A stretch of DNA of 20,000 nucleotides from an uncultured virus (IMG/VR IMGVR_UViG_3300020530_000425) (lineage: Duplodnaviria; Heunggongvirae; Uroviricota; Caudoviricetes), in IMG/VR virus record IMGVR_UViG_3300020530_000425; one strand, given 5' to 3'. Below, piece after piece: positions 2,737 through 17,417 of this stretch (position 1 is the first letter of the stretch; every line of letters starts with the position of its first letter). The translations under genes and the position numbers were made by a program. Below the pieces are notes generated by a model, which was given only the letters and a program-made list of their open reading frames with translations, was not told the origin of the DNA and did no database searches.

Positions 2737-2740
2737 AATA

Positions 2741-3430: not shown

Positions 3431-3431
3431 T

Positions 3432-3674: not shown

Positions 3675-3675
3675 A

Positions 3676-4323: not shown

Positions 4324-4331
4324 ATTTTTAT

Positions 4332-4541
4332 TTATTTTTTTAATCCGTATTTTATAAATTTATACCATATTCTTTCATGAATATAATATTGAACTGGTTT
4401 ATACACTAATTCTACAACTCCAAATGCAGCCCCTATCTGAATTGAACCACTTATCCACCACATTATTAAAAACCCTATGAGGGTACTTAAAATACGATAT
4501 GAGATGGTTTTAGCAATATGTCTCTTACGTTGTACTACCAT
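4332..4541 (-). CDS. DUF2061-like small membrane protein
   Basis: RHIAKTISYRILST...YYIHERIW pattern with two hydrophobic segments. The ATG at 4541 (MVVQRK) is preferred to the GTG at 4577. Confidence 0.8.
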   Translation of the reverse strand: MVVQRKRHIAKTISYRILSTLIGFLIMWWISGSIQIGAAFGVVELVYKPVQYYIHERIWYKFIKYGLKK

Positions 4542-4884
4542 TTGAATATATTTCTCCTTTTCTAATTTTAGTACCACTTATTTCAGCAATTTCTGTTGGT
4601 GGTTCATGATATATTACATCATATCCTACACCTCTACCATAGTTTACTGATTCAATATCAGGAATAATAGATATATGAATTTGATTCCAATTTTCTTGAA
4701 AGAATGGTTCTTTTGTTAATTCAATCATTACCTGTTGGGCAGTTTTGGGGTTGTTTTCATCTACATCCACATCTCTAATTGCCACCCAAACATTCTTTCC
4801 CTTTTCAAGTTGTTGATTGATTAACCATTCATGTCCTTTGTGCCAATTCTGCCATCTTCCGATGTATAGTGCGTACTTTTTCAT
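4525..4884 (-). CDS. Cytidyltransferase-like (HxGH) nucleotidyltransferase
   Basis: IGRWQNWHKGH (HxGH motif) and ISGTKIR (SxT-x-IR motif) of the HUP nucleotidyltransferase superfamily. Confidence 0.85.
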   Translation of the reverse strand: MKKYALYIGRWQNWHKGHEWLINQQLEKGKNVWVAIRDVDVDENNPKTAQQVMIELTKEPFFQENWNQIHISIIPDIESVNYGRGVGYDVIYHEPPTEIAEISGTKIRKGEIYSNGSTT

Positions 4885-5780
4885 AACATTGTTTTTATAA
4901 ATGGTAATATTGCTAATTCTTTTCCTTTTGCTTCAACCATAATGTCCACATCCAACTCGTATGTATTGGGGAGGGCATTAATATACACCGAATGGGCTTG
5001 TGGTTTTTCTTTTGGATTATTTTCATGTAATGCTTTTGATTCTGAATAATGAACTTCTTGTATAATACCTTTTGGCCAAGTTGTGGCAGCAAGTTTAAGA
5101 GCTTCTTCTTCGGTTAACCCACCCGTACAAAATTGGTGATGATGGTAATCAAATACAATAGGAATACCTGTTCGTTCGTAGATATACATCAAATCTTTTA
5201 CGGAATACATAGAAGCCTTATCATCATTCTCCAATGTCAATCGTTTTTGTACGCTTGGAGAGAGTCTTTTGAAATTTGTAATCAATCTATCCATCGCAGA
5301 TTGTTTATCTCCGTATACCCCATTACAATGGATATTAATATTGTTGTAATGGGTTTTAGATAACCCCATAAGGTCAAATATCTTACCATGTAATTCTAAA
5401 TCAGCAAAAGTTTTCTGAATAACTTCTTCGTTGGGTGAAGGGAGCACATTGAATGGGCCAGGATGAGAATTAATACGGATATTATGAAATTTGGCAAAAT
5501 CACCTGCTTTCTTTAACTCCGATTTAATTTCTTTGTAATCTTTTAGTTGGGTTAAATCCAAACCATCACCCCACGGAATAATAGTGGATGATAAACGAAA
5601 AAAATTGATATTATGGATACGATTCCATTCTAATATCTTAATAATATCTTTGGCATTTGCTAACGCCAACTCCGAAACGTAATCCAAGCCTTTGGCATTG
5701 AATGTTTTCTTCACCATTGAACGATTTGTGGTAACCTTGTTACCCATCGACATATTAATACACGCATATCCTATATTCAT
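4881..5780 (-). CDS. uvsE: UV DNA damage endonuclease (UvsE/UvdE)
   Basis: GYACIN, FFRLSS, HPGPF, LENDDK, DYHHH, HYSES, DIMVEAKGKELA motifs. Confidence 0.95.
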   Translation of the reverse strand: MNIGYACINMSMGNKVTTNRSMVKKTFNAKGLDYVSELALANAKDIIKILEWNRIHNINFFRLSSTIIPWGDGLDLTQLKDYKEIKSELKKAGDFAKFHNIRINSHPGPFNVLPSPNEEVIQKTFADLELHGKIFDLMGLSKTHYNNINIHCNGVYGDKQSAMDRLITNFKRLSPSVQKRLTLENDDKASMYSVKDLMYIYERTGIPIVFDYHHHQFCTGGLTEEEALKLAATTWPKGIIQEVHYSESKALHENNPKEKPQAHSVYINALPNTYELDVDIMVEAKGKELAILPFIKTML

Positions 5781-5784
5781 ACTT

Positions 5785-5815
5785 TAAATATAAGAAAAAT
5801 ATTTCGTATTTACAA
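5785..5815 (-). promoter_or_regulatory. Bacteroidota-type primary-sigma promoter for uvsE
   Basis: On the minus strand: TTG-N20-TATATTTA, 4 nt before the ATG; resembles the -33 TTTG / -7 TAnnTTTG consensus. Confidence 0.6.
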
Positions 5816-5819
5816 GCGG

Positions 5820-6860
5820 TTAGTAAGTTTTGATGTTTTCTTCTTCGTTACGGAATTTAGCCAAATCCCTAACACTTCCTTTTTTGGTGTTTAACCAATA
5901 ATTTACAGCTTTTGGATTATTTATCCACAATTTACGATTATTCCATGGAAATTCTGGATGCATGTATTCTTCCCATTTTAAATTTGAAGTTTCTTCTTCC
6001 TCTTCTTGAATTTTTTCAATGTTAGAAGCAGTTTCGTCAACTACATCCTCTGTTTTATCACCATAAATTTCATATAACCCCAATTTTTCATCATTTTCTA
6101 TCATTTCAACTAATTTTTCTTTTTGTTGGAGTTTTTTGTTAGAAATTAAACCATTAAATGCGATAATTAGAGCAACTGCGAGAGGGTCAAACACAATTAC
6201 AATCAAAAATATGAAGAATTTTACTACATTTTTTAATTCAATACCGAATGCTTCAGCTACAAATCGAAATCCACCTACTTCTTTCTCTAAATCGAGGTTA
6301 GCAATCTTAATTTCGTTGATTTTTTCTGTTTCAATTGCGTTTTCTGCTTGTAAATTAGAAATTTTATCGTTAATTTTACTAATTTCCTTATCTCTAGCAT
6401 CAAGTGAACGTAATAAACGTGAATTTACTGTACCTCCATCAATAATTTTACCTTGATTGGAGTTAAATTCGGTAATTTGAGTAGAAAGTTGAGTAATTTG
6501 CTCGGTGTTTTGGTCAATTTTTGTTTGATGAACCTCAATTTCTCTATCTACTTGCTGCAATTGTAGTGATTGTGCTTGAAATGCGTTTGAAAGGTATCCA
6601 AAAATACCTGCGGAAGTGATTAACATTAATAATCCAACAGATAAAGTTAAATACCATTTGTTGAATCCTTTAATGTTATCCCATTCTTGTTTGAGATATG
6701 TTGCAGCAACTAATTTAGCTAACTCTAAAGAGGAAGCCATTACTATAACTGATGTAGATGCTCCCGCAAAGAGAACACCTAAACCAGTTACAGAGAAATA
6801 AGCCGCACATCCGGCTACAATAATAGCAGATAATCCTACTAATACTTTTAGCCAATTCAT
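5820..6860 (-). CDS. Phage membrane protein: three N-terminal TM helices, long coiled coil, further TM helix
   Basis: Hydrophobic segments within residues ~4-90, heptad-rich QQVDREIE...NLDLEKE, then FFIFLIVIVFDPLAVALIIAF. Confidence 0.8.
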   Translation of the reverse strand: MNWLKVLVGLSAIIVAGCAAYFSVTGLGVLFAGASTSVIVMASSLELAKLVAATYLKQEWDNIKGFNKWYLTLSVGLLMLITSAGIFGYLSNAFQAQSLQLQQVDREIEVHQTKIDQNTEQITQLSTQITEFNSNQGKIIDGGTVNSRLLRSLDARDKEISKINDKISNLQAENAIETEKINEIKIANLDLEKEVGGFRFVAEAFGIELKNVVKFFIFLIVIVFDPLAVALIIAFNGLISNKKLQQKEKLVEMIENDEKLGLYEIYGDKTEDVVDETASNIEKIQEEEEETSNLKWEEYMHPEFPWNNRKLWINNPKAVNYWLNTKKGSVRDLAKFRNEEENIKTY

Positions 6861-6861
6861 A

Positions 6862-7038
6862 TTATCGATTGATTCTAGCTAACTCTCCTACACGTTCTAT
6901 TAATGCTCGGGCGTCTGCTAATGTAGTATGTGCTTCAGAAGGTGATAAGTTCTGTGCACCTGAAATTCCATTTTGTAAAATTCTCAATTTACCATCAATG
7001 GCTTCTAGTAAGTTTTTTATTTTTTCGTCGTATATCAT
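6862..7038 (-). CDS. Hypothetical 58-aa protein (not in the ORF track)
   Basis: Manual translation MIYDEKIKNLLEAIDGKLRILQNGISGAQNLSPSEAHTTLADARALIERVGELARINR*; fills the gap in the operon direction, with its stop 1 nt before the next ATG. Confidence 0.75.
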   Translation of the reverse strand: MIYDEKIKNLLEAIDGKLRILQNGISGAQNLSPSEAHTTLADARALIERVGELARINR

Positions 7039-7058
7039 ACTAATAAGTATTTTTAAAT

Positions 7059-7088
7059 AAAAAAAGGTGATAAGTTAGTCTTACCACC
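7059..7088 (-). terminator. Rho-independent terminator downstream of hsp20
   Basis: Minus strand: GGTGGTAAG-actaa-CTTATCACC stem-loop followed by T7. Confidence 0.8.
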
Positions 7089-7090
7089 CA

Positions 7091-7121
7091 TAAATATAGA
7101 AAAAATATTTCAATTAATCAA
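7091..7121 (-). promoter_or_regulatory. Bacteroidota-type promoter abutting the terminator
   Basis: Minus strand: TTG-N20-TATATTTA. Confidence 0.45.
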
Positions 7122-7494
7122 CTGTAATCGGAATTGATTTTGACTTTCTTTCTTCTTTTTTATCAATTGTTAAAATAAGTAACCCATTAGAAAATTTAGC
7201 TTTCGTTTTAGTTCCATCATAATCTTTGCTTACCGTAAAGGTAACATCGATATCATGAACCAATGGAGAGCTTCCTTCTTCTTTTTTTGCTTTAATTTTA
7301 ATTTTGTCATCTGTAACATCTAATTTAATGTTTTTAGCATCATGTCCTAAAACATTTAAAGTTAGTTGTTGCTGACCATCTTCCAATTGAGATACATCAT
7401 AATCCGCTACAAATGAAGCGTAATTTGATGATGTAGTATTCCATTTTGGAGAATCAAATAACTCGTATAATTTTCTTAAATCTGTGATGTACAT
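7114..7494 (-). CDS. Small heat-shock protein, Hsp20/alpha-crystallin family
   Basis: LNVLGHDAKNIKLDVTDDKIKIKA...AKFSNGLLILTIDK...IPI (IxI motif). Confidence 0.9.
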   Translation of the reverse strand: MYITDLRKLYELFDSPKWNTTSSNYASFVADYDVSQLEDGQQQLTLNVLGHDAKNIKLDVTDDKIKIKAKKEEGSSPLVHDIDVTFTVSKDYDGTKTKAKFSNGLLILTIDKKEERKSKSIPITVD

Positions 7495-7535
7495 AATTTT
7501 TAATTTTAAGTTTTCAAATAATTTAAACTGATAGT

Positions 7536-7608
7536 ATCCATTTTTATACCAATCAAATTATTATGACAAATTGTCAGTGTTCTCTAAATAAAGTATGACA
7601 CTTTGTCT
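7536..7608 (-). promoter_or_regulatory. hsp20 control region: two TGACA-N3-TGTC(A/T) palindromes plus a sigma54-like -24/-12 element
   Basis: TGACA-aat-TGTCA (7564-7576) and TGACA-ctt-TGTCT (7596-7608), 32 bp apart; TTGGTATAAAAATGGAT on the minus strand (7552-7536). Confidence 0.55.
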
Positions 7609-7611
7609 GTA

Positions 7612-8265
7612 TTATTTAGATTTAATGTAATTTTGTCTTTCAATAATAGTACTCATGTGGTCTGCCCAATGCATTATGTACTGAATATTTGATTTAAGAT
7701 ATTTGGATAAATCAAATGTTTTGTAATATTTTACATTATCTTCATCATACATTCCATCTGTAAGTTTAATACCAAAATATTCATTTTCATTATACTGAAT
7801 ACCATACCTGTTAAGTAAGAAGAAAGTTCTGTCAGTAATTGCCATATAAGAGTTCTTACTATTTCTAGTGTATACTTCACCTTTATTTTTTACATGCCAT
7901 TCTGATTCATTAGGTTCATAATGCAATTCTTCTTTAGTTCCTAACTTTCCTAAATCATGATGTAGTGCTACAAATATTAATTCTTCATCTGTAAAATCAG
8001 GTACACCACCCTGTGATACAAATACATTTTTCATAGCAATTGCATTCTTACAAACATTAAAAATGTGGTCGATATAACCACCAGGATATGCATTATGAAA
8101 ATTTAAATTACCTGAAGCTGGTGATATCATAAGGTTACCACCTAATTCTGATTCAGAGTACATGTGAAGAAGTTTTTCTAATCTTTCTCCTGTGAAGTAC
8201 TTTTCTAGGATTTTAAGAAACTTTTCGTAATTTGTTTTTAATTCTTGTTCTGTTTTTTGTTTCAT
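7612..8265 (-). CDS. HD-domain phosphohydrolase/nuclease
   Basis: HNAYPGGYIDH...LHHDLGK...HWAD metal-binding motifs. Confidence 0.88.
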   Translation of the reverse strand: MKQKTEQELKTNYEKFLKILEKYFTGERLEKLLHMYSESELGGNLMISPASGNLNFHNAYPGGYIDHIFNVCKNAIAMKNVFVSQGGVPDFTDEELIFVALHHDLGKLGTKEELHYEPNESEWHVKNKGEVYTRNSKNSYMAITDRTFFLLNRYGIQYNENEYFGIKLTDGMYDEDNVKYYKTFDLSKYLKSNIQYIMHWADHMSTIIERQNYIKSK

Positions 8266-8303
8266 TTTCTTGAGTAGTAAAGAGTTTAACTATTAATAAT
8301 ACC

Positions 8304-8334
8304 CAAACATACGAAAAATTTTCAACTTTTCCTA
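8304..8334 (-). promoter_or_regulatory. Bacteroidota-type promoter for the HD-domain gene
   Basis: Minus strand: TAG-N20-TATGTTTG, a perfect TAnnTTTG -7 element. Confidence 0.65.
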
Positions 8335-8338
8335 GTCA

Positions 8339-8656
8339 TCAGATAAAAAGTTTTTTCTTTGTTAAAATTTCATATAGAATTTCAACCTCTTCTTCAGTAG
8401 TTAATTCAGGCAAATCATCATCAAACAATCGAAGAGTGTAGACGGTATTTCCTTTTTCATCAAAAAATTCATCAGATTCAGAACTGAATAATGCGGGAGC
8501 ATATTCTATATTTTCTAAAGCATCCTCATCATCTATATCTATCAATGGTATAACATAATAGTGATAAGAATCTACTCCATCTTCTACTTCTATTTTATGA
8601 CACTTCCATTTATTGAAGCTATTTTCAGTTATTAGAGTCTGTGGTAATATAATCAT
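8339..8656 (-). CDS. Acidic hypothetical protein (105 aa)
   Basis: ORF track; has its own promoter upstream. Confidence 0.75.
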   Translation of the reverse strand: MIILPQTLITENSFNKWKCHKIEVEDGVDSYHYYVIPLIDIDDEDALENIEYAPALFSSESDEFFDEKGNTVYTLRLFDDDLPELTTEEEVEILYEILTKKKLFI

Positions 8657-8674
8657 AATTAAAACATTTAGAAG

Positions 8675-8706
8675 TAAATATAATAAAAAAATATGAATTT
8701 TACAAA
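8675..8706 (-). promoter_or_regulatory. Bacteroidota-type promoter
   Basis: Minus strand: TTTG-N20-TATATTTA. Confidence 0.6.
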
Positions 8707-8716
8707 TTACAGTTTC

Positions 8717-9367
8717 TTATAATATCTTTTTACCATTTTCTTTAAACAATCCTGCGTACACATAATTTGCAAATTGTTTATGTCCCAAAAAACTTAAATG
8801 ATAATCTTCCATTTTACCTTTGGTAGCATCTTTTATATTTTGTGCTCTCGAATCTTCCCAAATAGTTTGGGTATAAAATTCAAAATATTTATAACATTTT
8901 ATTATAGATTTTAAAAAATCATATCTTTGTTCATGACGTTGACGATATACATCATGCCCACTAAAATAATATGAAAAATTAACAATGGTTTCATATTCTT
9001 CTTTACTTTTAACTGTGGTTTTATATCCTGTTTCGGATTTGACTACGTTTCCGCATATAGTATAAAATTCACCTGGAGTTTCAGATGGTATATCAAATCG
9101 ATTTGAAAAAGTTTTATTAACAATTACAATATCGTTTTCCGAAATTAAATGATAATTACTTATTATCTTATCAAATATATAATCATTAGATGCTCCACAT
9201 TTACCCAAATTATTTAATTTATATCCCAATTTATTGGCCAATATAACAGGCCAAATTAAATCATCATCATTTTTTTTATATTGTTTATAATAGTCATCCC
9301 CCTCATAGTTTAGGACACATCCGTGTCCAAACGTCATTGAATCGCCAAAAGTCCAAAGTGTTGCCAT
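8717..9367 (-). CDS. SGNH/GDSL-fold hydrolase or acyltransferase
   Basis: FGDSMTFG (block I), GKCGASN (block II), DYHLSFLGH (block V-like Asp/His). Confidence 0.85.
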   Translation of the reverse strand: MATLWTFGDSMTFGHGCVLNYEGDDYYKQYKKNDDDLIWPVILANKLGYKLNNLGKCGASNDYIFDKIISNYHLISENDIVIVNKTFSNRFDIPSETPGEFYTICGNVVKSETGYKTTVKSKEEYETIVNFSYYFSGHDVYRQRHEQRYDFLKSIIKCYKYFEFYTQTIWEDSRAQNIKDATKGKMEDYHLSFLGHKQFANYVYAGLFKENGKKIL

Positions 9368-9369
9368 TT

Positions 9370-10419
9370 TTAAATTAAAGTTTTTTCAGTTTCGTATAAA
9401 TGATGAAAATTATGTAATACATTTGGAATATTTTTAACTTTATCCAATTCTAACAAAAACAAATTATGTTCTGGATGTTCTGGATTTGCTACATTTTTAA
9501 TTTTAAATTCAGCTTCACTGAATGTACCCCAATCCGAAATTACATTAGTTCTGATATCCCATTTTACTTTACTTTCTCTGTTATCCATATATGATTTAAT
9601 CATTTTATAAAAATCATACATTTCTTTATAATTAGTATCTTGCACCACAAATGAAAAAATATATTCTTTAATTGTTGGTATTTTTGTTATAAAACTTAAA
9701 TTTTCATGTAACACATTCCAATTACCACCAATTCTAGTTTTAGTTTCGTATGTTTCTTTTGTAGCTGCATCTATTGAAATTTCACAAGTATTAACATAAC
9801 AATGTATTCCACTCATCTTCTCCCACATTTCGGGAGTCCATAGTGACCCATTTGTATGTAAGTGAATTGATTTTAATTTTTTAAATTTGGTTGAATCCAA
9901 TGTAATAAGAAACTGTCTAAATGATTTTGAGAAAAATGGGTCAGCCGAACCACTCAATACTAATCTTTCAACAAACGGTGATATTTCGTTATTGATTTCA
10001 GTTAGTTTTTTTTCTACAGTTAATCGTGCATTACCTTTATAATTTATCAATTCAACTCTACAGGATGGACATTGAAAATTACAACTTCTATCAAATGTAA
10101 AATTAATTACTTTAGGTTTTTTGGTTTTATGTAAAGTATCAACATTTTCACGTGTATTAGGTATAAATTTAAGAGGTACTCTATTACTTTTTAAACTTGC
10201 TAAATACGGACATAAAGTTTCATTACAATATTTGTAACTACCATCGGTTACACTATCTCTTATTTTTTCAGAAATTTCAGAATTAAAGCTAGATACTATA
10301 CCACTACCATCATTTATATCAACTGGTAGCCAAGATGGACAGCACAAAAATTGTTTATTATCCTCCACTTCTGTAAAGTAGAATGGAGCGGTACATATAT
10401 ATTTTGATTTATCAATCAT
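9370..10419 (-). CDS. Radical SAM enzyme with an N-terminal SPASM/Twitch-like Cys cluster
   Basis: CNFQCPSC (CxxxCxxC), SGSADPF, HTNGSL, ISIDAA; N-terminal CTAPF...CCPSW...CNETLC. Confidence 0.9.
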   Translation of the reverse strand: MIDKSKYICTAPFYFTEVEDNKQFLCCPSWLPVDINDGSGIVSSFNSEISEKIRDSVTDGSYKYCNETLCPYLASLKSNRVPLKFIPNTRENVDTLHKTKKPKVINFTFDRSCNFQCPSCRVELINYKGNARLTVEKKLTEINNEISPFVERLVLSGSADPFFSKSFRQFLITLDSTKFKKLKSIHLHTNGSLWTPEMWEKMSGIHCYVNTCEISIDAATKETYETKTRIGGNWNVLHENLSFITKIPTIKEYIFSFVVQDTNYKEMYDFYKMIKSYMDNRESKVKWDIRTNVISDWGTFSEAEFKIKNVANPEHPEHNLFLLELDKVKNIPNVLHNFHHLYETEKTLI

Positions 10420-10436
10420 CCTTTAATACTATTATA

Positions 10437-10919
10437 TTAAAATATTTTCTTTTTTATATTTTTTTTATCTATAAACACAATCAATGACCATCGTTCACCA
10501 TAAGTTACTTCTTTAACTTCATGCAATCCACTTCCATAAAAACTATATATAGAACCACATATCTTTGGTAAAATTTTCATCGGATTGTAACATATAAGTT
10601 CTCCACCTCCGTAATCTTCATTCAAGCAAACTCCTATATTATATTCACTTCTTTTATCTATATGCGGTTGAAATTTATTTCCTGTTTGAACATTTTGTAA
10701 GTGAATTAAATTAATTGGTTCTACTAATTTTATACTTGTATGTTGTTCAATGTATTCCATTAATCTTACAAAAATCCATTCCGTTAAATCGGTTCGTTCT
10801 ACATGCCAAGCAAAGTATTTTGTTTCATCACTTTCCCACCATTCATCAGATGTATGTTTTTTAAATACACTTTGAAGTGAAATTATTTTTTTACATTCTT
10901 CTTTTGTAAAATTTATCAT
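10437..10919 (-). CDS. 2OG-Fe(II) oxygenase, prolyl-4-hydroxylase-like
   Basis: HID (HxD), LNEDYGGGEL, HEVKEVTYGERWSL. Confidence 0.9.
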   Translation of the reverse strand: MINFTKEECKKIISLQSVFKKHTSDEWWESDETKYFAWHVERTDLTEWIFVRLMEYIEQHTSIKLVEPINLIHLQNVQTGNKFQPHIDKRSEYNIGVCLNEDYGGGELICYNPMKILPKICGSIYSFYGSGLHEVKEVTYGERWSLIVFIDKKNIKKKIF

Positions 10920-10925
10920 ATAATT

Positions 10926-11498
10926 TTATAATAAAGTTTTATTACTAGATATAGTACTACCATATTTAGCATTATTAGATATAGTAGTTCTCAATATAGA
11001 TATATGTGTAAGTTTTAAATGAGATGGAAACAATAGTTGAAATTTTATTATATCAAAAATTTCTGAAAATTTTATTTTATTAGATGTAACTATTTTGTTA
11101 TGTTCTAACGTAGTAGGATATAAATTCACAACTCTTAATTTCATATTGTGATGTTTATTTATTAGATTAATGGAAGATTTTTGTAAATTTAATTTACTTT
11201 CTCTATACTCATCAATACTACCATTATTAAGAATAGCCGATGTTAGTATATTAAAAATAGTTTTTTCTTTATATTTCCATTCTTCAAAAAGTTCTTCAAA
11301 TAATTTTTGTTGATAAATTGGATGATATGTATTATTTATAAAAACATCACATTCATTAGCATCTTGTATTATTTTTTCGTAATTTTCTAATGAATAATTA
11401 TTGGTTCTTGAAAATCCAATAACTTCGTTTTCTTTTTTGAGTAGGGTATAAAGTTCTTTACCTAAATTTTGAGTATGACCTGTTATTGCTACTTTCAT
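10926..11498 (-). CDS. Short-chain dehydrogenase/reductase-like Rossmann protein
   Basis: KVAITGHTQNLG, FINN, catalytic S...YRESK (YxxxK). Confidence 0.8.
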   Translation of the reverse strand: MKVAITGHTQNLGKELYTLLKKENEVIGFSRTNNYSLENYEKIIQDANECDVFINNTYHPIYQQKLFEELFEEWKYKEKTIFNILTSAILNNGSIDEYRESKLNLQKSSINLINKHHNMKLRVVNLYPTTLEHNKIVTSNKIKFSEIFDIIKFQLLFPSHLKLTHISILRTTISNNAKYGSTISSNKTLL

Positions 11499-11546
11499 TG
11501 AATTAATTTTTTTGTTTCCTTTAGAATATATACGGCATTGTTTTAC

Positions 11547-12491
11547 TTAAATTAAACTATTATTTTTTAATAAAACACTTTTCTTTTCAGTTTTCTGAAT
11601 CCACTCATAGTATTTTTTAGATGCAGTATTTTCTTTTAGTTTTAAATTTAAGTTATATGGGAGTGATTTTTTATAGTTTGATTTATTAAAATAATTGATA
11701 TTAGAATTGGTTACTCCTGCATTATGCATTATGTTATATCTATTATAAAAATCCTCACTTGATGTTGCAAAAACAAACATTAAATCGGGATGACATTGTG
11801 TTTTATATCCACCCTTCCAAATGTTCCATAGTACAGACCACATATCTGCTGCCCATATTTGTAATTCATGATAAGATGGATTTTCTTGTTTTTTCTTGTT
11901 ATTTAATTGGGTTATTTTTTTATATAAATTTTCACAATCACGCTCCACATTTTCCCAAAAAGTATCATCTATATTTTTTAAAATATACTGTGCCCCGATT
12001 GAATTATTATTATTATCGATAACAAGTTGTGGATTTATATCTACTATTTTAACCATTTTATCAAAAACATCTTTGCCTTTAGAAATTATATAGTCATACG
12101 AAATATACCAATGTGTATTAGAACCATAAAATATATCATCGTTTTCAAACTGATTCCAATTTATTGGAACTCTAAATATAATATCACAATCGTGATAAAA
12201 TATGGTTTCATTTTTTAAATTAGGATGTAATTTAAAATGTTGTTTAAGAATATTAGGTCTTATTGAAGAAATATAATGTTTTGTTATACGAGTATCCTCA
12301 TAGAAAAAAAATCTAGCATTATACCCATTTGATAATTTTTTCCATACTTCTGGTATTTTATTATTTTTTTTTGTGCAAACTATATCAACACATTGAAGGT
12401 CCACCCCCATTTCCATAAAATTATTAAGCATGACTTCTATTTGCCATGCAAAGTATAATTCGGATGGTTGTGCACAAATAAATCTAATCAT
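11547..12491 (-). CDS. GT-A glycosyltransferase resembling HPAT/SERGT protein O-glycosyltransferases
   Basis: YFAWQ near the N-terminus, YHDCDIIF (DxD), GAQY, WAADMW, late IMH. Confidence 0.7.
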   Translation of the reverse strand: MIRFICAQPSELYFAWQIEVMLNNFMEMGVDLQCVDIVCTKKNNKIPEVWKKLSNGYNARFFFYEDTRITKHYISSIRPNILKQHFKLHPNLKNETIFYHDCDIIFRVPINWNQFENDDIFYGSNTHWYISYDYIISKGKDVFDKMVKIVDINPQLVIDNNNNSIGAQYILKNIDDTFWENVERDCENLYKKITQLNNKKKQENPSYHELQIWAADMWSVLWNIWKGGYKTQCHPDLMFVFATSSEDFYNRYNIMHNAGVTNSNINYFNKSNYKKSLPYNLNLKLKENTASKKYYEWIQKTEKKSVLLKNNSLI

Positions 12492-12505: not shown

Positions 12506-13102
12506 TTATAATAATTTACTTTTAGCAGAAGAAAAATCGGATTCATATAAAAATATAGTTAAACTAAATCTAATACCCTCTTCTAATAGTTTTACTTCAT
12601 GTATATCCGAACTTAAAAATAAAGAATATGACCCTTGTTCTTTGGATTGAGGAACATCCTTAACATATAAATATCCACCAACATAATCTTTAGGGTCTGA
12701 TAATTGGATTACTAAAGTTTTATATGTACAACCAAATTCATCTATGCTTCTAAAATCACGATGAGGCGCAAAAAAATCACCTTCAATATATTTTGTTATT
12801 TTAACCTGATTATTTAAAATAGATTTTATACCGATTTTTGATAATCTACTTAAAATAAAATTTATTAATTCTTTGTTAAACAAATCTAAAAATTTTAATT
12901 TTGCATTTTTTGGTTTGATGGTAATTATTCTACCGTTTTCCGTTTGTAATTGTACAGTAGTTGCACCATTTATTACGGTAGTAGTATCTTTACGGTAATT
13001 GCCATTGGTTGTTCGATATACTACACCATCTATTGAATTAAAATCATCCCAAAAAGATTTTATATATTCACAATCTTCTTTTGAAAATAAAACATTATCC
13101 AT
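12506..13102 (-). CDS. 2OG-Fe(II) oxygenase
   Basis: KYIEGDFFAPHRD, QLSDPKDYVGGYL, HEVKLLEEGIRFSL. Confidence 0.9.
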   Translation of the reverse strand: MDNVLFSKEDCEYIKSFWDDFNSIDGVVYRTTNGNYRKDTTTVINGATTVQLQTENGRIITIKPKNAKLKFLDLFNKELINFILSRLSKIGIKSILNNQVKITKYIEGDFFAPHRDFRSIDEFGCTYKTLVIQLSDPKDYVGGYLYVKDVPQSKEQGSYSLFLSSDIHEVKLLEEGIRFSLTIFLYESDFSSAKSKLL

Positions 13103-13277: not shown

Positions 13278-15485
13278 TTATTGAAAAACTGCTTGTCTTT
13301 TAAGAGTATTATTTAGTAATTCATTATCCCCTAAACCAGAAACCACAAAATCCTCCACTATAAAGTTATGCTCACTTTCAAATAAAAGATTACCATCTAT
13401 TTCTAAATTATAAAAATTATCCACATATTGAATACCTAATTCAACACCTGGTGCTTCAAAAATTGGTTTCCATTCTCCATTATCATAGAATGGATGTAAT
13501 CTATCGGAAATCATTCCTTTATATTTTACAACCTCAACAACATCATTTGTAGGGTGTATTAATTTATCAGTTACAACACCTCTTACATATTTACCGTCTT
13601 TGTAACTTAAAATACAATCTCCTATTTCTATATCAATAATATTTTTAAAACTACCATCTTCCATTTCAACTTTGGTTTCAGCAGTGAAACACGATGTTGT
13701 TGTTGTAACTTTATTATGAACTAAAATGTTTTCTGCAAAATAAGTATGATTATCTTTAACATCAATTAAGTGATATACTTTGAATTCACCTTTTAAAGAT
13801 TCAATTGATTTAACTTTTACAAGAATACCATCTTTATTAAATAACAAATTACCTACTTTAATATCTTGTGCGTGAGACCATCCGTGTTCCTCAACATAAA
13901 ATTTATGTAAAGGTGTACTTTTAACTTCATCACCATTTTCAGTTACAATATAAATAAGTTCATTTTGAGTAGAAACACGAATACTTGTAGCCGTACCTGC
14001 TCCATATTTTCCTTGTTCATTATTGTAAGTAAGTAAAACATCAGTAGTAGTTAAATCTTCAATGTTTTTATATGTACCATCATTTAACAATATACGAGTT
14101 CCTGCTGGGAAACAGTTGTGGGTTACAATCTTAATATTGATATCATTATCATATAATGCAAATGTATCAGTTTCTTCCAAATCTAAAATGTAAGTTGAAA
14201 GTCCTTCTTCGTTTAAAACTTCAAAATCATTATCAGTAATATCAATAAGATTACCATCTAATTTGAATACCTTATGTTCTCCTGGTATAATTCCTGCAAC
14301 TTCTTCGTATCTAATTAAATCAGAAACACTATCATAAATAAGAATATGTTGACCACCATTTGCTCTAAACGAACCACTACCATAGTATAAATGAGATACT
14401 AGATTATTTGGAAGTGATTGTTCTATTTTATTTATTAAAACCGAAGATGTAACATAAGAACCACTTGGTAAAGTTTGTCCAGGATAACTCCAACTTGTAA
14501 ATACCATAACACTATCGGTATCAGGTGTTCCTTCTATACAAAAAGATTTATAAGAACCGCCAATTTCAACATCAGATATTTGTACAGGATTTCCATCCGA
14601 ATCACTAATTAATTCTTCTTCAAAAATACCACCCCATGAATTATCAGTAATAAATTTAGGAAAGTTTGTTGTAAATTCATAATAATGTTTAGATGAAAGG
14701 TTAGATTCATCAATAAAAGATAAAGATTCTGGTTTTTCAAAAACTGCAGTAGGTTCAATTGTTACCAAATTTATTACATCTAATTCAGAACCATATATTA
14801 TGTTAAATGTACGAATTGATTTATGTCTAATGTCATCGGTATCTTCATAATTCATTAAAATATTAGATTCAATATATGATTGAGATATAAATGAATCAAA
14901 CGAATTTTCTAAACTTACACCATCTTGTGTTTGTATTTTATAAAAAGATAATGGATATCTAGCATAAGTTTCATCTTTTATAACAATATCCGGTATATTT
15001 TCGGAATTAACAACTCTTTGTAATCCATCATAAAAAAATTCCGATGATGAAATATACATAGAAGGTATTGAACCAGTTTCGGATGCATCTATAAATAATT
15101 TATGTAATTCAAATGATGATTTACAATATTCACTATCAAATACAGCAGATTCATCATACGCTAATCTTAATATAAATTTATTATCAGAATCTTCAACATT
15201 TGTTGGATAAACAGTTGATATATCTTCTTCGTATATAACAAATGAGGTAATGTTAGGTTGTGATTGAATACTTTGAGATAAAAAAGTTAAAAACCCACTT
15301 TGGAATGGTTTGTGAATTACCTCCAATGAATCGATATTATTATCAGATAATATTGAAAAGAATTCAGTAAAATCAAGTTGAGATACTGAACTACTCCAGA
15401 ATCCAGTATCGGTATTTAATTCCAATAATCTCAAATTACCAGTTGAGTCTTTTACAAAATCTGCGGAAAATAGTGTTCCTTTCAT
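13278..15485 (-). CDS. Circularly permuted ATP-grasp-like domain fused to three tandem Hint (intein-like) domains
   Basis: N-terminal ADFVKDSTGNLRLLELNTDT resembles the glutathionylspermidine-synthetase D..D...LLExNxDT motif. Hint1 G286-N457 (GIFEEELISDSDG...IVTHN), Hint2 C458-N591 (CFPAGT...TPLH...ILVHN), linker KVTTTTS, Hint3 C599-~G717 (CFTAET...RLHPF...FVVSG). Confidence 0.85.
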   Translation of the reverse strand: MKGTLFSADFVKDSTGNLRLLELNTDTGFWSSSVSQLDFTEFFSILSDNNIDSLEVIHKPFQSGFLTFLSQSIQSQPNITSFVIYEEDISTVYPTNVEDSDNKFILRLAYDESAVFDSEYCKSSFELHKLFIDASETGSIPSMYISSSEFFYDGLQRVVNSENIPDIVIKDETYARYPLSFYKIQTQDGVSLENSFDSFISQSYIESNILMNYEDTDDIRHKSIRTFNIIYGSELDVINLVTIEPTAVFEKPESLSFIDESNLSSKHYYEFTTNFPKFITDNSWGGIFEEELISDSDGNPVQISDVEIGGSYKSFCIEGTPDTDSVMVFTSWSYPGQTLPSGSYVTSSVLINKIEQSLPNNLVSHLYYGSGSFRANGGQHILIYDSVSDLIRYEEVAGIIPGEHKVFKLDGNLIDITDNDFEVLNEEGLSTYILDLEETDTFALYDNDINIKIVTHNCFPAGTRILLNDGTYKNIEDLTTTDVLLTYNNEQGKYGAGTATSIRVSTQNELIYIVTENGDEVKSTPLHKFYVEEHGWSHAQDIKVGNLLFNKDGILVKVKSIESLKGEFKVYHLIDVKDNHTYFAENILVHNKVTTTTSCFTAETKVEMEDGSFKNIIDIEIGDCILSYKDGKYVRGVVTDKLIHPTNDVVEVVKYKGMISDRLHPFYDNGEWKPIFEAPGVELGIQYVDNFYNLEIDGNLLFESEHNFIVEDFVVSGLGDNELLNNTLKRQAVFQ

Positions 15486-15548: not shown

Positions 15549-16148
15549 CTATATTAAGTTTTGTTTTGGTTTAATATCAATTGTATTTCGTAATCTATTT
15601 CTATTATCTAATAGAGAATACGATTTTACTTTTTTAATTTCTAGATAGTTAGTTAATTTATCAATATCTACATTACTTTGATATAGATTTTCACAATATA
15701 TATTTTCGTATGATATTAATAATTCAATTTGTGGTATATTAGATATTAACTCTTTGTTTTTTTGTAATCTAGATTCCTCCTTTTTGATTTCTTCTTCATT
15801 TTCTGTTATCCATTCATTAGTTATTTCATAACAATCTCTCCAAATGTTAGAAGCCAATGCCCAGCAGTGTGATATCGCACACTCTCGTGTATCATTTCGT
15901 ATCAAACCAATAATTTTATCCCAATTACTCCAATCGAACGTATCTAATTCATTTTCTATTTCACTAATCAAATATTTTACTACCGTATTGTTTTTGTTTT
16001 TAGCCAATAATCGTATTTTATAAATACTCAATATATCCCCATTATCCATTGTTGGTTCATGAATAGTTTCATACCTTTTTTCTGAACCAATCCAATTAAG
16101 TAAAGAGTATCCACCACTTCTACCCATCGCTATTATTAATATTCTCAT
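15549..16148 (-). CDS. Sulfotransferase-like (Stf0-like) P-loop protein
   Basis: IIAMGRSGGYSL (5'-PSB-like loop), HEP, LIRNDTRECAIS (3'-PB-like R...S), ISYE. Confidence 0.65.
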   Translation of the reverse strand: MRILIIAMGRSGGYSLLNWIGSEKRYETIHEPTMDNGDILSIYKIRLLAKNKNNTVVKYLISEIENELDTFDWSNWDKIIGLIRNDTRECAISHCWALASNIWRDCYEITNEWITENEEEIKKEESRLQKNKELISNIPQIELLISYENIYCENLYQSNVDIDKLTNYLEIKKVKSYSLLDNRNRLRNTIDIKPKQNLI

Positions 16149-16888
16149 TATTTACCATTCTTAATTGAGCCAGATATATTTGATGCAATCGCATAAAACG
16201 CATCGTATGCTTCTAATAGGGAATCAACTACTGGATGTCTATGGTTGGTAAGTAGGGTATGTGAATCCATATCCTTAATCTTCTTTGCAGCAGATACTAA
16301 AAACTTAAATCCACTTTCTCCTTTTGATTTTAAATCTACTTGTTGTGTATCACCACACACCACCATTTTACTTCTCAATCCCAAACGAGATGTAATCATT
16401 TCCATTTGTTCGTTAGTACAATTTTGAGCCTCATCTACAATAATAAATGAATCCAAAAATGTTCTACCTCGCATAAATGCAAGGGGTACAATTTCTACTG
16501 TCCCATCTTTTAAAATCTCATCTATTTTTTGTTTGTTGTAAAGTTGATAAAAGTTTGCATAAACTGGCTGCATCCAAGGTTCCATCTTTTCGCGAAGGTC
16601 ACCTGGTAGGAATCCAATTTCTTCTTTGGATACGGTAGGTCTTGTGATGATGATTTGTTTAACTTCTTTCTTAAATAACATATCCAATGCAACCTGACAC
16701 GCTAGGAGTGTTTTACCACTACCTGCTTTACCACTCAATATGGTAATTGCATTTGATAAAATCTTTTCTTTGGCTTGTTTTTGTTCTTCATTTAACTGAA
16801 GTTGAAATTTAATAGAACCTTTTGGTCGTTTTTGGTCTGCTATTTGTTCTGTCAATTCTCTATGTTTTGTTGATATATTTGATGCCAT
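16148..16888 (-). CDS. phoH: PhoH-like ATPase
   Basis: GKAGSGKT, ITRP, IGFLPGDLREKM, PLAFMRGRTF, DEAQN, GDTQQVDL, HRHP. Confidence 0.95.
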   Translation of the reverse strand: MASNISTKHRELTEQIADQKRPKGSIKFQLQLNEEQKQAKEKILSNAITILSGKAGSGKTLLACQVALDMLFKKEVKQIIITRPTVSKEEIGFLPGDLREKMEPWMQPVYANFYQLYNKQKIDEILKDGTVEIVPLAFMRGRTFLDSFIIVDEAQNCTNEQMEMITSRLGLRSKMVVCGDTQQVDLKSKGESGFKFLVSAAKKIKDMDSHTLLTNHRHPVVDSLLEAYDAFYAIASNISGSIKNGK

Positions 16889-16916
16889 AAATTTTTTGTC
16901 TAACTAATGAAACTTA

Positions 16917-17417
16917 TTAAATTACAGAATGTAAAATTAGTTCGTGCAATCCTTCAACAATTCCGTAATCTTTACTATCTACCCAAAAATGTAATTTTGA
17001 ATGACTACCAAAGTTGGATTTCAATTTATTCTTTTCGGAATGACCCGACATTGTAATCATATCAATAGAGTTATCTACACAATACTTCGCACAATTCAGT
17101 ATATTTTTTGAATTACCTGATGATGATATTAATATTACCAATGTATCGCCCTCCACAAAGTGTTCTAAAAACATTTGATATGCGTTATCCCATCCGTAAT
17201 CATTCGCATAACAACTCATTCTAGGAGTATCTCCGAACGCAATTGCTTTAACCCCTAACATTTTATGGTAATCCTCTGCTATATGTAACGCAACGGCATT
17301 ACTACCACCATTACCTAATATAATGATATTACTATGATGATGTATTAAATTTTTCAATGTTGCTAATTTACCCAATTCTATTTGGGATAAACATTTTTTA
17401 TATTCTTGTAAATCCAT
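16917..17417 (-). CDS. SIS-domain phosphosugar isomerase, GmhA-like
   Basis: GNGGSNAVALH, ANDYG, ISSSGNSKNI, YGIVEGLH. Confidence 0.85.
   Translation of the reverse strand: MDLQEYKKCLSQIELGKLATLKNLIHHHSNIIILGNGGSNAVALHIAEDYHKMLGVKAIAFGDTPRMSCYANDYGWDNAYQMFLEHFVEGDTLVILISSSGNSKNILNCAKYCVDNSIDMITMSGHSEKNKLKSNFGSHSKLHFWVDSKDYGIVEGLHELILHSVI

What the first reader, a model, noticed from the sequence alone, without database searches (positions are those of the whole stretch)
13278..14630. Three tandem Hint domains with complementary defects bracket a 7-residue peptide: a natural two-intein peptide excision device?
Seen: three Hint repeats align in register (GIFEEELISDSDG / CFPAGTRILLNDG / CFTAETKVEMEDG). 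Hint1 (G286-N457) lacks the first Cys but keeps the terminal His-Asn and directly abuts C458. Hint2 (C458-N591) has Cys1, TxxH and His-Asn, but its +1 residue is Lys. Hint3 (from C599) has Cys1 and the block-B His but ends VVSG without His-Asn, followed by an 18-aa tail. Known chemistry: terminal Asn cyclisation gives C-terminal cleavage, Cys1 gives an N-S shift and thioester, and canonical splicing needs C/S/T at +1. Inference: Hint2 would free the N-terminus of KVTTTTS (13712-13692) and Hint3 would activate its C-terminus as a thioester. This is the layout of engineered two-intein cyclisation systems, so the peptide could be cyclised, or the peptide or upstream fragment ligated onto another molecule as in Hedgehog. 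No homing endonuclease is present, so this does not look like a selfish intein.
Basis: partly seen in the sequence, partly recalled or inferred. Interest (0 to 1): 0.92.

Follow-up and report, generated by a model that had tools for sequence, protein, structure and literature searches.

The report
Phage enzyme with three Hint domains
A gene of a T4-like aquatic phage encodes an ATP-grasp-like enzyme domain followed by three intein-related self-cleaving (Hint) domains; the arrangement is widespread among such phages and I found no description of it, and the short peptide between the last two domains looks like a spacer, not a product.

Summary
ORF 13278-15485 (-) encodes 735 aa with three Hint domains. 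Hint1 (G286-N457) has a Hint fold (VIA-align Z 19.1 to BIL domain 2lwy; hhalign to Hint2 95%). Hint2 (C458-N591) is a BIL/PT-HINT-type domain. Hint3 (C599-S716) is a Vint/Hog-like type ending VSGLGD plus a tail instead of His-Asn.

They fold like the glutathione/glutathionylspermidine-synthetase class of ATP-grasp ligases.

The protein belongs to a large, almost purely viral family. In 215 members the core (N-domain plus Gly-start, His-Asn-end Hint1) carries 0, 1, 2 or 3 Cys-start Hints (12/44/157/2). Cys1 is kept in 364 of 364 and His-Asn in 311 of 364.

The linker is the least conserved part. It is 1-36 aa long, with 121 distinct sequences among 160 and mean identity 0.11. A dedicated 7-mer product is therefore unlikely.

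Best reading: BIL-type self-cleavage frees an ATP-grasp-Hint1 enzyme from evolutionarily labile accessory Hint modules. This is a new variant of a known kind; its function has not been tested.

The parts
13278..15485 (-). Whole ORF, 735 aa (P0001), stop codon at 13278-13280
   Evidence: M1-K2-G3 is conserved across the family, so the start is right.
14631..15485 (-). N-domain, residues 1-285: divergent ATP-grasp-like fold of the glutathione synthetase / glutathionylspermidine synthetase (apparently permuted) class
   Evidence: Foldseek gives E 3.2e-6 to 2hgs and 7uk6, and every match with E below 1e-3 is GS, GspS, YgiC/YjfC or a putative GspS. VIA-align Z is 9.4 / 9.4 / 9.2 to 7uka / 5oeu / 2io7 in the 457-aa model and 8.1 for the domain alone. 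Invariant polar residues include D9, E22, N24, K59, R107, D117, K170 and R225. No Pfam or PDB sequence match.
14115..14630 (-). Hint1, G286-N457: degenerate Hint domain. Gly replaces Cys1, block B is lost, blocks F and G are kept (D435, E437, D440, H456, N457), and there is a conserved insert at about 319-348.
13713..14114 (-). Hint2, C458-N591: complete BIL / PT-HINT-type domain (Cys1, T524-x-x-H527, H590-N591); the +1 residue is Lys
13692..13712 (-). Linker K592-S598 (KVTTTTS), Thr-rich and poorly conserved
13338..13691 (-). Hint3, C599-S716: Vint/Hog-like Hint with Cys1 and the block-B His (H664) but no terminal His-Asn
13281..13337 (-). Conserved C-terminal tail G717-Q735 (GLGDN..LN..LKRQ..FQ), part of the Hint3 module
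   Evidence: The same VSGLGD...LN..F.RQ ending closes seven otherwise unrelated proteins. It is conserved in the 37 of 121 close homologues of this type.
12506..13102 (-). Next gene downstream, a 2OG-Fe(II) oxygenase. This is a conserved neighbour (association only).
   Evidence: Pfam 2OG-FeII_Oxy_3 5.7e-7. An oxygenase of this kind lies within four genes downstream in 56 of 71 related loci, against 17 of 66 upstream.

Best explanation
The gene encodes a precursor of a phage enzyme.

The conserved core is a divergent ATP-grasp-like ligase domain (1-285) permanently joined to Hint1. Hint1 has lost the N-terminal nucleophile apparatus (Gly1, no TxxH) but keeps the C-terminal apparatus (blocks F and G, invariant His-Asn). 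Behind the core sit two accessory autoprocessing Hint domains of the bacterial-intein-like kind.

Most likely chemistry (inferred, not shown):
- Bond N457|C458 is broken by cyclisation of Asn457, by the N-S acyl shift of Cys458, or by both.
- Bond N591|K592 is broken by cyclisation of Asn591.
- Bond S598|C599 is turned into a thioester by Cys599 and then hydrolysed.

The outcome is a mature ATP-grasp-Hint1 protein of 457 residues, plus free Hint2, free Hint3 with its tail, and a short spacer peptide as a by-product.

The later Hints are evolutionarily labile, self-removing add-ons. They may be a pro-domain or timer, or tolerated intein-like passengers. The function under selection lies in the ATP-grasp-Hint1 core. 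Its gene neighbours (SET-domain and 2OG-Fe(II) oxygenase genes) suggest that the core modifies a protein or peptide.
For: Shown here:
- Hint folds for all three domains.
- The core is invariant as a unit. N-domain and Hint1 occur together in 215 proteins, with G-start in 206/215 and His-Asn in 213/215. The two-domain model has pTM 0.88.
- The later Hints number 0/1/2/3 in 12/44/157/2 members. That number changed at least 25 times on a core tree of 120 rows, against a shuffled mean of 45.
- A close relative, P0009 (Hint1 155/172 and Hint2 123/134 identical), carries a different last Hint (36/156 identical), which is a module swap.
- Catalytic residues of the later Hints are kept: Cys1 in 364/364 and His-Asn in 311/364. 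Of the 53 without His-Asn, 47 are the SGLGD type.
- C/S/T at +1 follows only 9 of 311 His-Asn ends. The last Hint is followed by a lone Lys and the stop in 112 cases. So there is essentially no C-extein to splice onto.
- The linker is the least conserved part.
- The N-domain has an ATP-grasp-like fold and invariant acidic and basic residues.

From papers (passages read): BIL domains lack the +1 nucleophile and give mainly N- and C-cleaved products (PMC7664689). A-type BILs have a conserved C-terminal His-Asn and sit in variable regions (PMC7765530).
Against: - No cleavage has been observed; everything about the chemistry is inferred from conserved residues.
- If the later Hints were mere throw-away modules, it is not obvious why the last one keeps His-Asn when only one Lys follows it.
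- It is also unexplained why a K or R sits at +1 or +2 after 294 of 311 His-Asn ends. That pattern hints at a role for the residue after the cut.
- The best sequence match of Hint2 (2lwy) is a BIL domain reported to ligate without a nucleophilic side chain (title cited in PMC7664689). Splicing rather than cleavage is therefore possible.
- The ATP-grasp assignment rests on fold only. Z is 8.1-9.4 with rmsd 4-5 A, near the tool's caution line of 8. There is no sequence-level match and no significant match among predicted viral structures.
- Counts include related sequences and are not independent events.
Confidence: 0.55

Rival explanations
1. BIL-type splicing. Each Cys-start Hint excises itself and joins its flanks without a nucleophilic side chain: Asn cyclisation frees the alpha-amine of the next residue, which attacks the thioester. 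The mature protein would be ATP-grasp-Hint1 carrying a short tail (here KVTTTTS plus whatever follows). It would then resemble the family members that have no later Hint.
For: [quoted passage not shown] Members with Hint1 only end in His-Asn plus a tail that is 1-10 aa long in 10 of the 11 whose His-Asn end was found, often containing K. That is what splicing of the longer forms would produce.
Against: Passages read say BIL domains give predominantly cleaved products (PMC7664689), and that A-type BILs cleave at the C-terminus but cannot ligate the flanks (PMC7765530). The query's Hint3 lacks His-Asn, so it cannot complete such a reaction. Its 19-aa tail is part of the Hint3 module in unrelated proteins.
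Confidence: 0.15
2. Hedgehog- or BUBL-like transfer. The thioester made by a Cys-start Hint is attacked by a specific nucleophile (a lysine side chain or a small molecule). The ATP-grasp-Hint1 protein, or the linker peptide, then becomes covalently attached to a target.
For: Hint3 is a strictly C-terminal module without His-Asn and with a conserved tail, as in Hedgehog's Hog domain. It closes seven unrelated proteins. Its nearest solved relative by sequence is BIL2 of the Tetrahymena BUBL locus, which is reported to form a Lys-epsilon isopeptide and to dispense a ubiquitin-like domain onto substrates (PMC8616854, passages). A K or R stands at +1 or +2 after 294 of 311 His-Asn ends.
Against: Arg is nearly as common as Lys at +1 of internal linkers (R 30, K 27 of 160), and Arg is a poor nucleophile. 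No acceptor or adduct-binding region has been identified. The 19-aa tail is much shorter than a sterol-recognition region (recalled).
Confidence: 0.12
3. One reading: a dedicated two-intein device that excises KVTTTTS and activates it for cyclisation or ligation.
For: The layout (His-Asn end, peptide, Cys1 start) is real in the query. It recurs in 159 of 215 members, those with 2 or 3 later Hints (157 + 2). High variability would fit a RiPP-like hypervariable core.
Against: Linkers are 1-36 aa long, and 8 of 160 are a single K or R. 56 of 215 members have no bracketed peptide. The linker changes by indels among proteins 84-92% identical overall. There is no Cys or Ser at the peptide's first position. 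The composition (T/S/G/P-rich with one basic residue) is that of a spacer.
Confidence: 0.07
4. The Hint domains are catalytically dead structural or binding modules, and the protein stays in one piece.
For: Hint1 has clearly been re-used as a fixed part of the enzyme. It has a conserved insert at 319-348 and a confident two-domain model.
Against: Dead domains would not keep Cys1 in 364/364, T-x-x-H (121/121 in Hint2) and His-Asn (213/215 in Hint1, 311/364 in later Hints) over sequence divergence down to about 30% identity.
Confidence: 0.05

Closest known systems
A-type bacterial intein-like (BIL) domains, e.g. the Clostridium thermocellum BIL domain (PDB 2lwy); Pfam PT-HINT
   Same: Hint2 matches it by sequence (E 3.7e-9). 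Hint1 matches it by fold (Z 19.1). Shared features are Cys1, TxxH, a terminal His-Asn, no +1 nucleophile, no endonuclease, and a location in a variable part of a non-essential protein.
   Different: Here the domains sit at the very C-terminus of a phage enzyme, in arrays of 1-3 behind a Gly1 Hint. Usually one Lys follows the last of them. No toxin or secreted passenger lies downstream.
BIL2 of the Tetrahymena thermophila BUBL1 polyubiquitin-like locus (PDB 6tmm, 6y75)
   Same: It is the nearest solved sequence relative of Hint3 (E 5e-4) and the second-best fold match of Hint1 (Z 18.4). It is a Hint domain that processes a short or modular neighbour and uses a lysine (PMC8616854).
   Different: BUBL domains flank ubiquitin-like domains. 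Here the flanked element is a 1-36-aa non-conserved linker, and no ubiquitin-like fold is present.
Hedgehog C-terminal autoprocessing (Hog) domain (PDB 1at0) and Vint domains (PDB 8r2c; Pfam PF14623)
   Same: Hint3 is C-terminal, has Cys1 and the block-B His, lacks His-Asn, and is followed by a conserved extra segment. Pfam Vint 1.8e-9 and Hint 1e-10. Hint1 fold Z is 16.7 to 1at0.
   Different: The tail is only 19 aa, and no sterol- or adduct-recognition region is recognisable. The context is a phage, not a eukaryote.
Glutathione synthetase, glutathionylspermidine synthetase, YgiC/YjfC (ATP-grasp ligases of the permuted class; PDB 2hgs, 2io7, 7uka, 7uk6)
   Same: These are the best fold matches of residues 1-276. 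The N-terminal strand pair carries invariant D9 and E22-x-N24. It aligns with the middle of these chains (model 2-276 against 2io7 311-608). Canonical RimK, LysX and TTLL chains align only from model residue 50 onward.
   Different: There is no detectable sequence similarity. At 285 aa the domain is much smaller than these enzymes, the substrate is unknown, and the fit is loose (rmsd 4-5 A).
Engineered two-intein systems (TWIN, SICLOPPS; e.g. PDB 5ol6)
   Same: Same order of parts in the query: the C-terminal end of one intein-like domain, a short peptide, then the N-terminal Cys of the next.
   Different: The engineered systems need Cys or Ser as the first residue of the peptide (recalled). 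Here it is Lys, and the natural 'peptide' is not conserved in length or sequence.

Membership tests
HINT (Hedgehog/intein) superfamily | Hint fold in residues 286-457 (Hint1) | tested here: met
   VIA-align Z 19.1, rmsd 1.5 A over 138 aa to 2lwy, and Z 16.7 to Hedgehog 1at0. Foldseek E 2.5e-8, TM 0.87. hhalign to Hint2 95.2%.
HINT (Hedgehog/intein) superfamily | Curated sequence-model match for Hint2 and Hint3 | tested here: met
   PT-HINT 65.3 bits (cut-off 27.7), Hint 42 bits (29.7), Vint 38.1 bits (27). TIGR01445 intein_Nterm 41.7 bits (24.5).
Canonical (class 1) intein | Nucleophile (Cys/Ser) at position 1 | tested here: not met
   Met by Hint2 (C458) and Hint3 (C599), but not by Hint1: G286, Gly in 206/215 members.
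Canonical (class 1) intein | Cys/Ser/Thr at +1 and a C-extein to be ligated | tested here: not met
   The residue after N591 is Lys. Only 9 of 311 His-Asn ends of Cys-start Hints are followed by C/S/T. The last Hint is followed by a lone Lys and the stop in 112 cases.
Canonical (class 1) intein | Terminal His-Asn | tested here: not met
   Present in Hint1 and Hint2. Absent in the query's Hint3, which ends VVS-GLGD.
A-type BIL domain | Cys1, block B, conserved C-terminal His-Asn, no +1 nucleophile, no endonuclease (features as described in PMC7765530 and PMC7664689) | tested here: met
   Hint2: C458, T524/H527, H590-N591, K592. 134 aa with no insert. Sequence match to 2lwy.
A-type BIL domain | Autocleavage activity | not testable with these tools
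   Inferred from conserved residues only.
Hog/Vint-type C-terminal autoprocessing domain | C-terminal position, Cys1 and block-B His, no terminal His-Asn | tested here: met
   Hint3: C599, H664 (121/121), ends VSGLGD. The same module closes P0232, P0256, P0258, P0262, P0265, P0266 and P0268.
Hog/Vint-type C-terminal autoprocessing domain | Adduct (sterol) recognition region and transfer to a nucleophile | not testable with these tools
   Only a conserved 19-aa tail is present.
Polymorphic-toxin pretoxin HINT (PT-HINT) architecture | Toxin domain C-terminal to the Hint | tested here: not met
   Nothing but another Hint and a 19-aa tail follows. Family tails are mostly a single K.
ATP-grasp superfamily (GS/GspS class) | ATP-grasp fold | tested here: met
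   Foldseek E 3.2e-6, prob 1.00, to 2hgs and 7uk6; all matches with E below 1e-3 are of this class. VIA-align Z 8.1-9.4 with 200-220 aligned residues. The fit is moderate, not tight.
ATP-grasp superfamily (GS/GspS class) | Sequence-model membership | tested here: inconclusive
   No Pfam hit for any of 46 N-domains at E up to 1 that names an ATP-grasp family. A profile search of PDB sequences found nothing relevant.
ATP-grasp superfamily (GS/GspS class) | Mg/ATP-binding residues in place | tested here: inconclusive
   D9, E22, N24, K59, R107, K170 and R225 are invariant in 46 diverse sequences. The spacing D-x12-E-x-N resembles the Mg-binding motif (recalled). Coordinates could not be superposed.
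Engineered two-intein peptide cyclisation layout | N-terminal Cys/Ser on the released peptide (recalled requirement) | tested here: not met
   K592. The first residue of inter-Hint linkers is F/R/K/L/W/Y in 141 of 160 cases, S or T in 9, and never C.

The most novel reading that the evidence does not exclude
The ATP-grasp-Hint1 core and the trailing Hints could form a self-contained protein-conjugation system.

The Hints would create activated C-termini: a thioester at residues 457 and 598 and a succinimide at Asn457. These would be passed to an amine, either a lysine (note the near-universal K/R just after each His-Asn) or a substrate held by the amidoligase domain. The enzyme or a short tag would thereby become attached to a host or virion protein without an E1/E2-type cascade.

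That would be a phage counterpart of the Tetrahymena BUBL 'dispensing platform' or of Hedgehog adduct formation. It might act together with the neighbouring SET-domain and 2OG-Fe(II) oxygenase genes as a protein-modification cassette.
Probability: 0.12. Interest if true: 0.85.

Novelty: new variant of a known kind. Interest (0 to 1): 0.6.

Why it matters
The natural role of bacterial intein-like and other non-splicing Hint domains is still largely unknown. This family offers a large natural series from T4-like aquatic phages: more than 200 sequences with 0, 1, 2 or 3 accessory Hints behind one conserved enzyme core.

Three differently disabled Hint types sit side by side: one able to cleave only at its C-terminus, one complete, and one able to cleave only at its N-terminus. 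In about half the family, the terminal Asn of one domain directly abuts the Cys1 of the next.

That makes several questions directly testable with ordinary expression and mass spectrometry:
- whether such arrays cleave, splice or transfer;
- what a Gly1 Hint does;
- what an ATP-grasp-like ligase gains from being made as a self-processing precursor.

The domains are also compact, at 134 aa or about 120 aa, which may be of practical use as protein-engineering parts.

Tried and rejected
Searches that found nothing useful:
- Sequence-level identification of the N-domain failed. Pfam, PHROGs and NCBIfam on the whole protein gave only Hint-type hits. Pfam on 46 N-domains gave only scattered chance-level hits, the commonest being FtsH_ext in 7 of 46 at E 0.0012 or weaker. 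A profile search of PDB sequences gave four hits at E 0.25 or weaker, none relevant.
- The BFVD fold search of the N-domain gave 0 matches at E 0.001 or better.
- The ESM Atlas gave only sub-threshold leads (0.85-0.88), some of them ATP-grasp clusters.
- Among 50,697 phage records only 4 match, and only over a Hint part covering at most 24% of the query. There is no DNA match.
- Among the genomes of 185,579 species there is 1 locus, on a 2.8-kb contig.
- Earlier notes of this scan: none.
- DNA repeats, tRNAs and terminators around the gene: nothing beyond chance.
- The paper on amidoligases (PMC3268129) is not held.

Readings considered and dropped:
- A polymorphic-toxin PT-HINT protein: there is no toxin domain downstream.
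- Hint1 as a class-2-like intein that uses C458 as its +1 nucleophile. Only 102 of 213 members have Cys directly after Hint1's His-Asn (Ala in 60). Hint1 also carries a conserved family-specific insert and packs confidently on the N-domain.
- Recent tandem duplication of the Hints. Hint2 and Hint3 are only 27% identical, and there is no DNA repeat.
Full report
**Observation**

The minus-strand ORF 13278-15485 encodes 735 aa. G286 starts at 14630 and KVTTTTS lies at 13712-13692. The junctions are H456-N457|C458 and H590-N591|K592, Hint3 starts at C599, and the protein ends ...FVVSG plus 18 residues.

Pfam recognises residues 458-591 as PT-HINT (9.2e-18, 65.3 bits against a cut-off of 27.7). It recognises 594-720 as Hint, Vint and Hom_end_hint (1e-10 to 3.5e-9). 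It finds nothing in 1-457.

[quoted passage not shown] Residues 598-691 match BIL2 of the Tetrahymena BUBL1 locus, 6tmm and 6y75 (about 5e-4).

At DNA level there is no repeat beyond 15-27-nt pairs. The three copies are old and similar only as proteins. Hint2 and Hint3 align at hhalign probability 99.9% with 27% identity.

**Is Hint1 a Hint domain? Yes.**

- A profile of Hint1 from 121 homologues aligns with the Hint2 profile at probability 95.2%, E 2.7e-8, over 123 columns. The N-domain profile against Hint2 gives 0.3%.
- An AlphaFold2 model of residues 1-457, built on 109 sequences, has mean pLDDT 93.8 and pTM 0.88.
- Residues 279-457 of that model superpose on 2lwy at Z 19.1 (rmsd 1.5 A, 138 residues), on BIL2 at Z 18.4 and on Hedgehog 1at0 at Z 16.7. 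In all, 26 intein, BIL or Hedgehog entries score Z 12.5 or more. Foldseek agrees (E 2.5e-8, TM 0.87 to 2lwy).
- Position 1 of solved inteins aligns with model residue 286.
- Hint1 has lost the N-terminal half of the catalytic set. It has Gly at position 1, and no conserved T-x-x-H: the aligned positions are N376 and Q379, with H380 in only 80 of 121.
- It keeps the C-terminal half. D435, E437 and D440 are in 121/121, T441 in 119/121, and H456 and N457 in 121/121.
- It carries a conserved family-specific insert at about 319-348 (P340 in 121/121; T346 and S348 in 120/121).

They have no sequence-level match in Pfam, PHROGs, NCBIfam or PDB sequences. The fold searches agree with one another:

- With the 457-aa model, Foldseek lists human glutathione synthetase 2hgs (1.1e-5), YjfC 7uk6 and glutathionylspermidine synthetase 2ioa.
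- VIA-align gives Z 9.4 (YgiC 7uka), 9.4 (5oeu) and 9.2 (2io7, model 2-276 against chain 311-608). RimK, LysX/ArgX and TTLL follow at Z 5.7-6.6 and align only from model residue about 50.
- With the domain alone (pLDDT 86.9), Foldseek's matches with E below 1e-3 are all glutathione synthetases, glutathionylspermidine synthetase, YgiC/YjfC or a putative glutathionylspermidine synthase; the best are 3.2e-6. VIA-align gives Z 8.1.
- The fit is loose (rmsd 4-5 A) and Z is near the tool's caution line. I therefore call the fold ATP-grasp-like with about 75% confidence.
- The first 50 residues (two strands with invariant D9 and E22-x-N24) align with the middle of GS and GspS chains and are not covered by canonical ATP-grasp chains. 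That is what the known circular permutation of this class would give. The permutation and the Mg-binding role of a D...E-x-N motif are recalled, not tested.
- Twenty-one columns are invariant in 46 diverse N-domains, among them D9, E22, N24, K59, R107, D117, K170 and R225. This speaks for an active enzyme.

**The family**

The word-indexed search found 758 proteins at E 0.001 or better among the 8000 candidates scored. Of the 120 best, 118 are 726-764 aa long and 42-92% identical. The exhaustive representative search found 141 cluster representatives at E 1e-30 or better, and it revealed shorter and longer forms.

I built HMMs of the four parts and scanned all 268 proteins then in hand. The N-domain and Hint1 go together in 215 proteins. 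Behind them come 0, 1, 2 or 3 Cys-start Hints in 12, 44, 157 and 2 proteins.

- Hint1 starts with Gly in 206/215 and ends His-Asn in 213/215.
- All 364 later Hints start with Cys, and 311 end His-Asn.
- Of the 53 that do not, 47 have the query's VSGLGD ending, 5 have a third ending and 1 is cut short.
- Only 9 of 311 His-Asn ends are followed by C/S/T. K or R stands at +1 in 208 and at +2 in 86.
- The last Hint is followed by a lone Lys and the stop in 112 proteins.
- Directly after Hint1's His-Asn comes Cys1 of the next Hint in 102 of 213 and Ala in 60.

These counts include related sequences, so they are not independent events. The set nevertheless spans identities down to about 30%.

**The linker**

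Between Cys-start Hints the linker is 1-36 aa long (mode 6), with 121 distinct sequences among 160. In 8 cases it is a single K or R.

Mean identity to the query over 120 homologues is 0.11 for the linker. It is 0.47, 0.51, 0.54 and 0.36 for the N-domain, Hint1, Hint2 and Hint3.

The seven closest relatives are 78-92% identical overall (six at 84-92%, plus P0009 at 78%). They carry KVPTTTAG, KITTSG, KITTTTS or KIPTTSGS.

**Modularity**

On a FastTree of 120 core sequences (residues 1 to the end of Hint1), the number of later Hints needs at least 25 changes. The shuffled mean is 45, and 0 of 200 shuffles were as low. I used 120 of the 215: all from the representative search plus every fourth of the close set, leaving out N-terminally cut rows.

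P0009 is 90% identical to the query in Hint1 and 92% in Hint2, but has a different last Hint (36/156 identical) that ends His-Asn-Lys. That is a module swap.

The query's Hint3 with its tail (VSGLGD..LN..F.RQ) is also the extreme C-terminus of seven otherwise unrelated proteins of 361-1566 aa. Arrays of 3-8 PT-HINT-type domains occur in other large proteins, for example one with a subtilase and a PKD domain.

**Context**

- The window is a 20-kb piece of a 24.3-kb viral record with about 28% G+C.
- Around the gene lie a carbamoyltransferase, a peptide deformylase, UvdE, Hsp20, a radical-SAM protein, two 2OG-Fe(II) oxygenases and PhoH.
- All 4 of 4 large related records tested (145-326 kb) encode a T4-type gp23 capsid protein.
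- The family is nearly absent from cellular genomes: 1 locus in 185,579 species. It has no full-length match among 50,697 deposited phage records.
- In 71 related loci with four downstream genes in view (the three identical to the window left out), a 2OG-Fe(II) oxygenase lies within four genes downstream in 56 (upstream in 17 of 66). A SET-domain gene lies there in 33 (upstream in 0 of 66).
- The loci are not independent, and one of the three SET clusters is just under Pfam's cut-off (22.3 against 22.4 bits).

**Mechanism**

Shown: the folds, the residue conservation, the variable copy number and the variable linker. Inferred: all of the chemistry.

The passages I read say that BIL domains lack the +1 nucleophile and give mainly N- and C-cleaved products (PMC7664689). 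They also say that A-type BILs keep a C-terminal His-Asn and lie in variable regions (PMC7765530).

On that basis the most likely course is self-cleavage at 457|458, 591|592 and 598|599. This frees a 457-residue ATP-grasp-Hint1 enzyme and discards Hint2, Hint3 and the spacer.

Bond 457|458 is special. It is at once the C-terminal scissile bond of Hint1 and the N-terminal one of Hint2, so Asn cyclisation and the N-S shift could reinforce each other (inference).

Two things remain unexplained under this reading: why the last Hint keeps His-Asn before a single Lys, and why K or R follows nearly every His-Asn. These features keep two rivals alive. One is nucleophile-free BIL splicing. The other is BUBL- or Hedgehog-like transfer to an amine: PMC8616854 (passages) reports a Lys-epsilon isopeptide made by BIL2.

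**Known or new**

Full-text searches found no description of this architecture:
- BIL with tandem with phage;
- Hint domain with ATP-grasp with phage (I read passages of both papers returned, and neither describes such a fusion);
- intein-like or Hint domain with cyanophage, myovirus or metagenome (listing only);
- tandem, adjacent or consecutive inteins (listing only).

The CDC123/R2K ATP-grasp paper mentions phage ATP-grasp enzymes but no Hint (PMC4431377). The library lacks most subscription journals, including the original BIL papers, which I know only from reference lists and recollection.

I class the finding as a new variant of a known kind. The parts are known (BIL-, Hog- and Vint-type Hints and an ATP-grasp-like ligase). 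The combination is undescribed, with a Gly1 Hint as a fixed partner.

**Limits**

- No experiment and no expression data were examined.
- Some 'Hint1-only' proteins could be truncated gene calls. However, 10 of the 11 whose His-Asn end was found stop 1-10 residues after it, which is not what random truncation would give.

Noticed in passing
L004-L080 (e.g. L023:3708-4737, L008:8929-9315, L004:8984-9382): Downstream of family members the order 'small 50-aa ORF, SET-domain protein, 2OG-Fe(II) oxygenase(s)' recurs. SET lies within four genes downstream in 33/71 loci and upstream in 0/66. With the ATP-grasp-like domain, this looks like a cassette of protein-modifying enzyme types. The window itself has the oxygenases but no SET gene by Pfam.
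   Followed up: partly
window 15549-16148 (-): A 199-aa protein directly upstream has no Pfam, PHROG or NCBIfam match. Paralogues of it (cluster 2, 38 copies) are scattered on both sides of the gene in related loci.
   Followed up: partly
P0009 (protein): A close relative (Hint1 90% and Hint2 92% identical) has swapped the last Hint for the His-Asn-Lys type. This is evidence of recombination at the Hint boundaries.
   Followed up: partly
P0132, P0149, P0184, P0196: A third kind of terminal Hint ending, roughly (V/I)-(E/S)-G-(I/V)-(P/A)-A-(D/S)-G-T-x-H-D, neither His-Asn nor SGLGD, followed by a tail of about 20-25 aa.
   Followed up: no
P0175, P0208, P0237, P0261: Proteins with long arrays of Hint domains. 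One of 1285 aa has 7 Hint stretches and little else. One has a subtilase, a PKD domain and 4 PT-HINT domains. A 2724-aa DNA polymerase III alpha has several inteins and a C-terminal uracil-DNA glycosylase domain.
   Followed up: no
L014, L016, L022-L027, L030, L048: Family members of 904-913 aa, long enough for three Cys-start Hints. They are commoner among the viral loci than in the protein sets.
   Followed up: no
window 1036-12491 and 16148-17417: The whole window is one minus-strand block of auxiliary-type genes: Nol-like carbamoyltransferase, peptide deformylase, UvdE, Hsp20, radical-SAM protein, two 2OG-Fe(II) oxygenases, PhoH and a SIS-domain protein. There is no tRNA. The nearest PhoH among deposited phages is from Flavobacterium myophages, at 58% identity.
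   Followed up: partly
window 11547-12491 (-): A 314-aa protein of PHROG 4417 (4.9e-61), of unknown function, lies two genes downstream. It is found in only 4 of 80 related loci.
   Followed up: no
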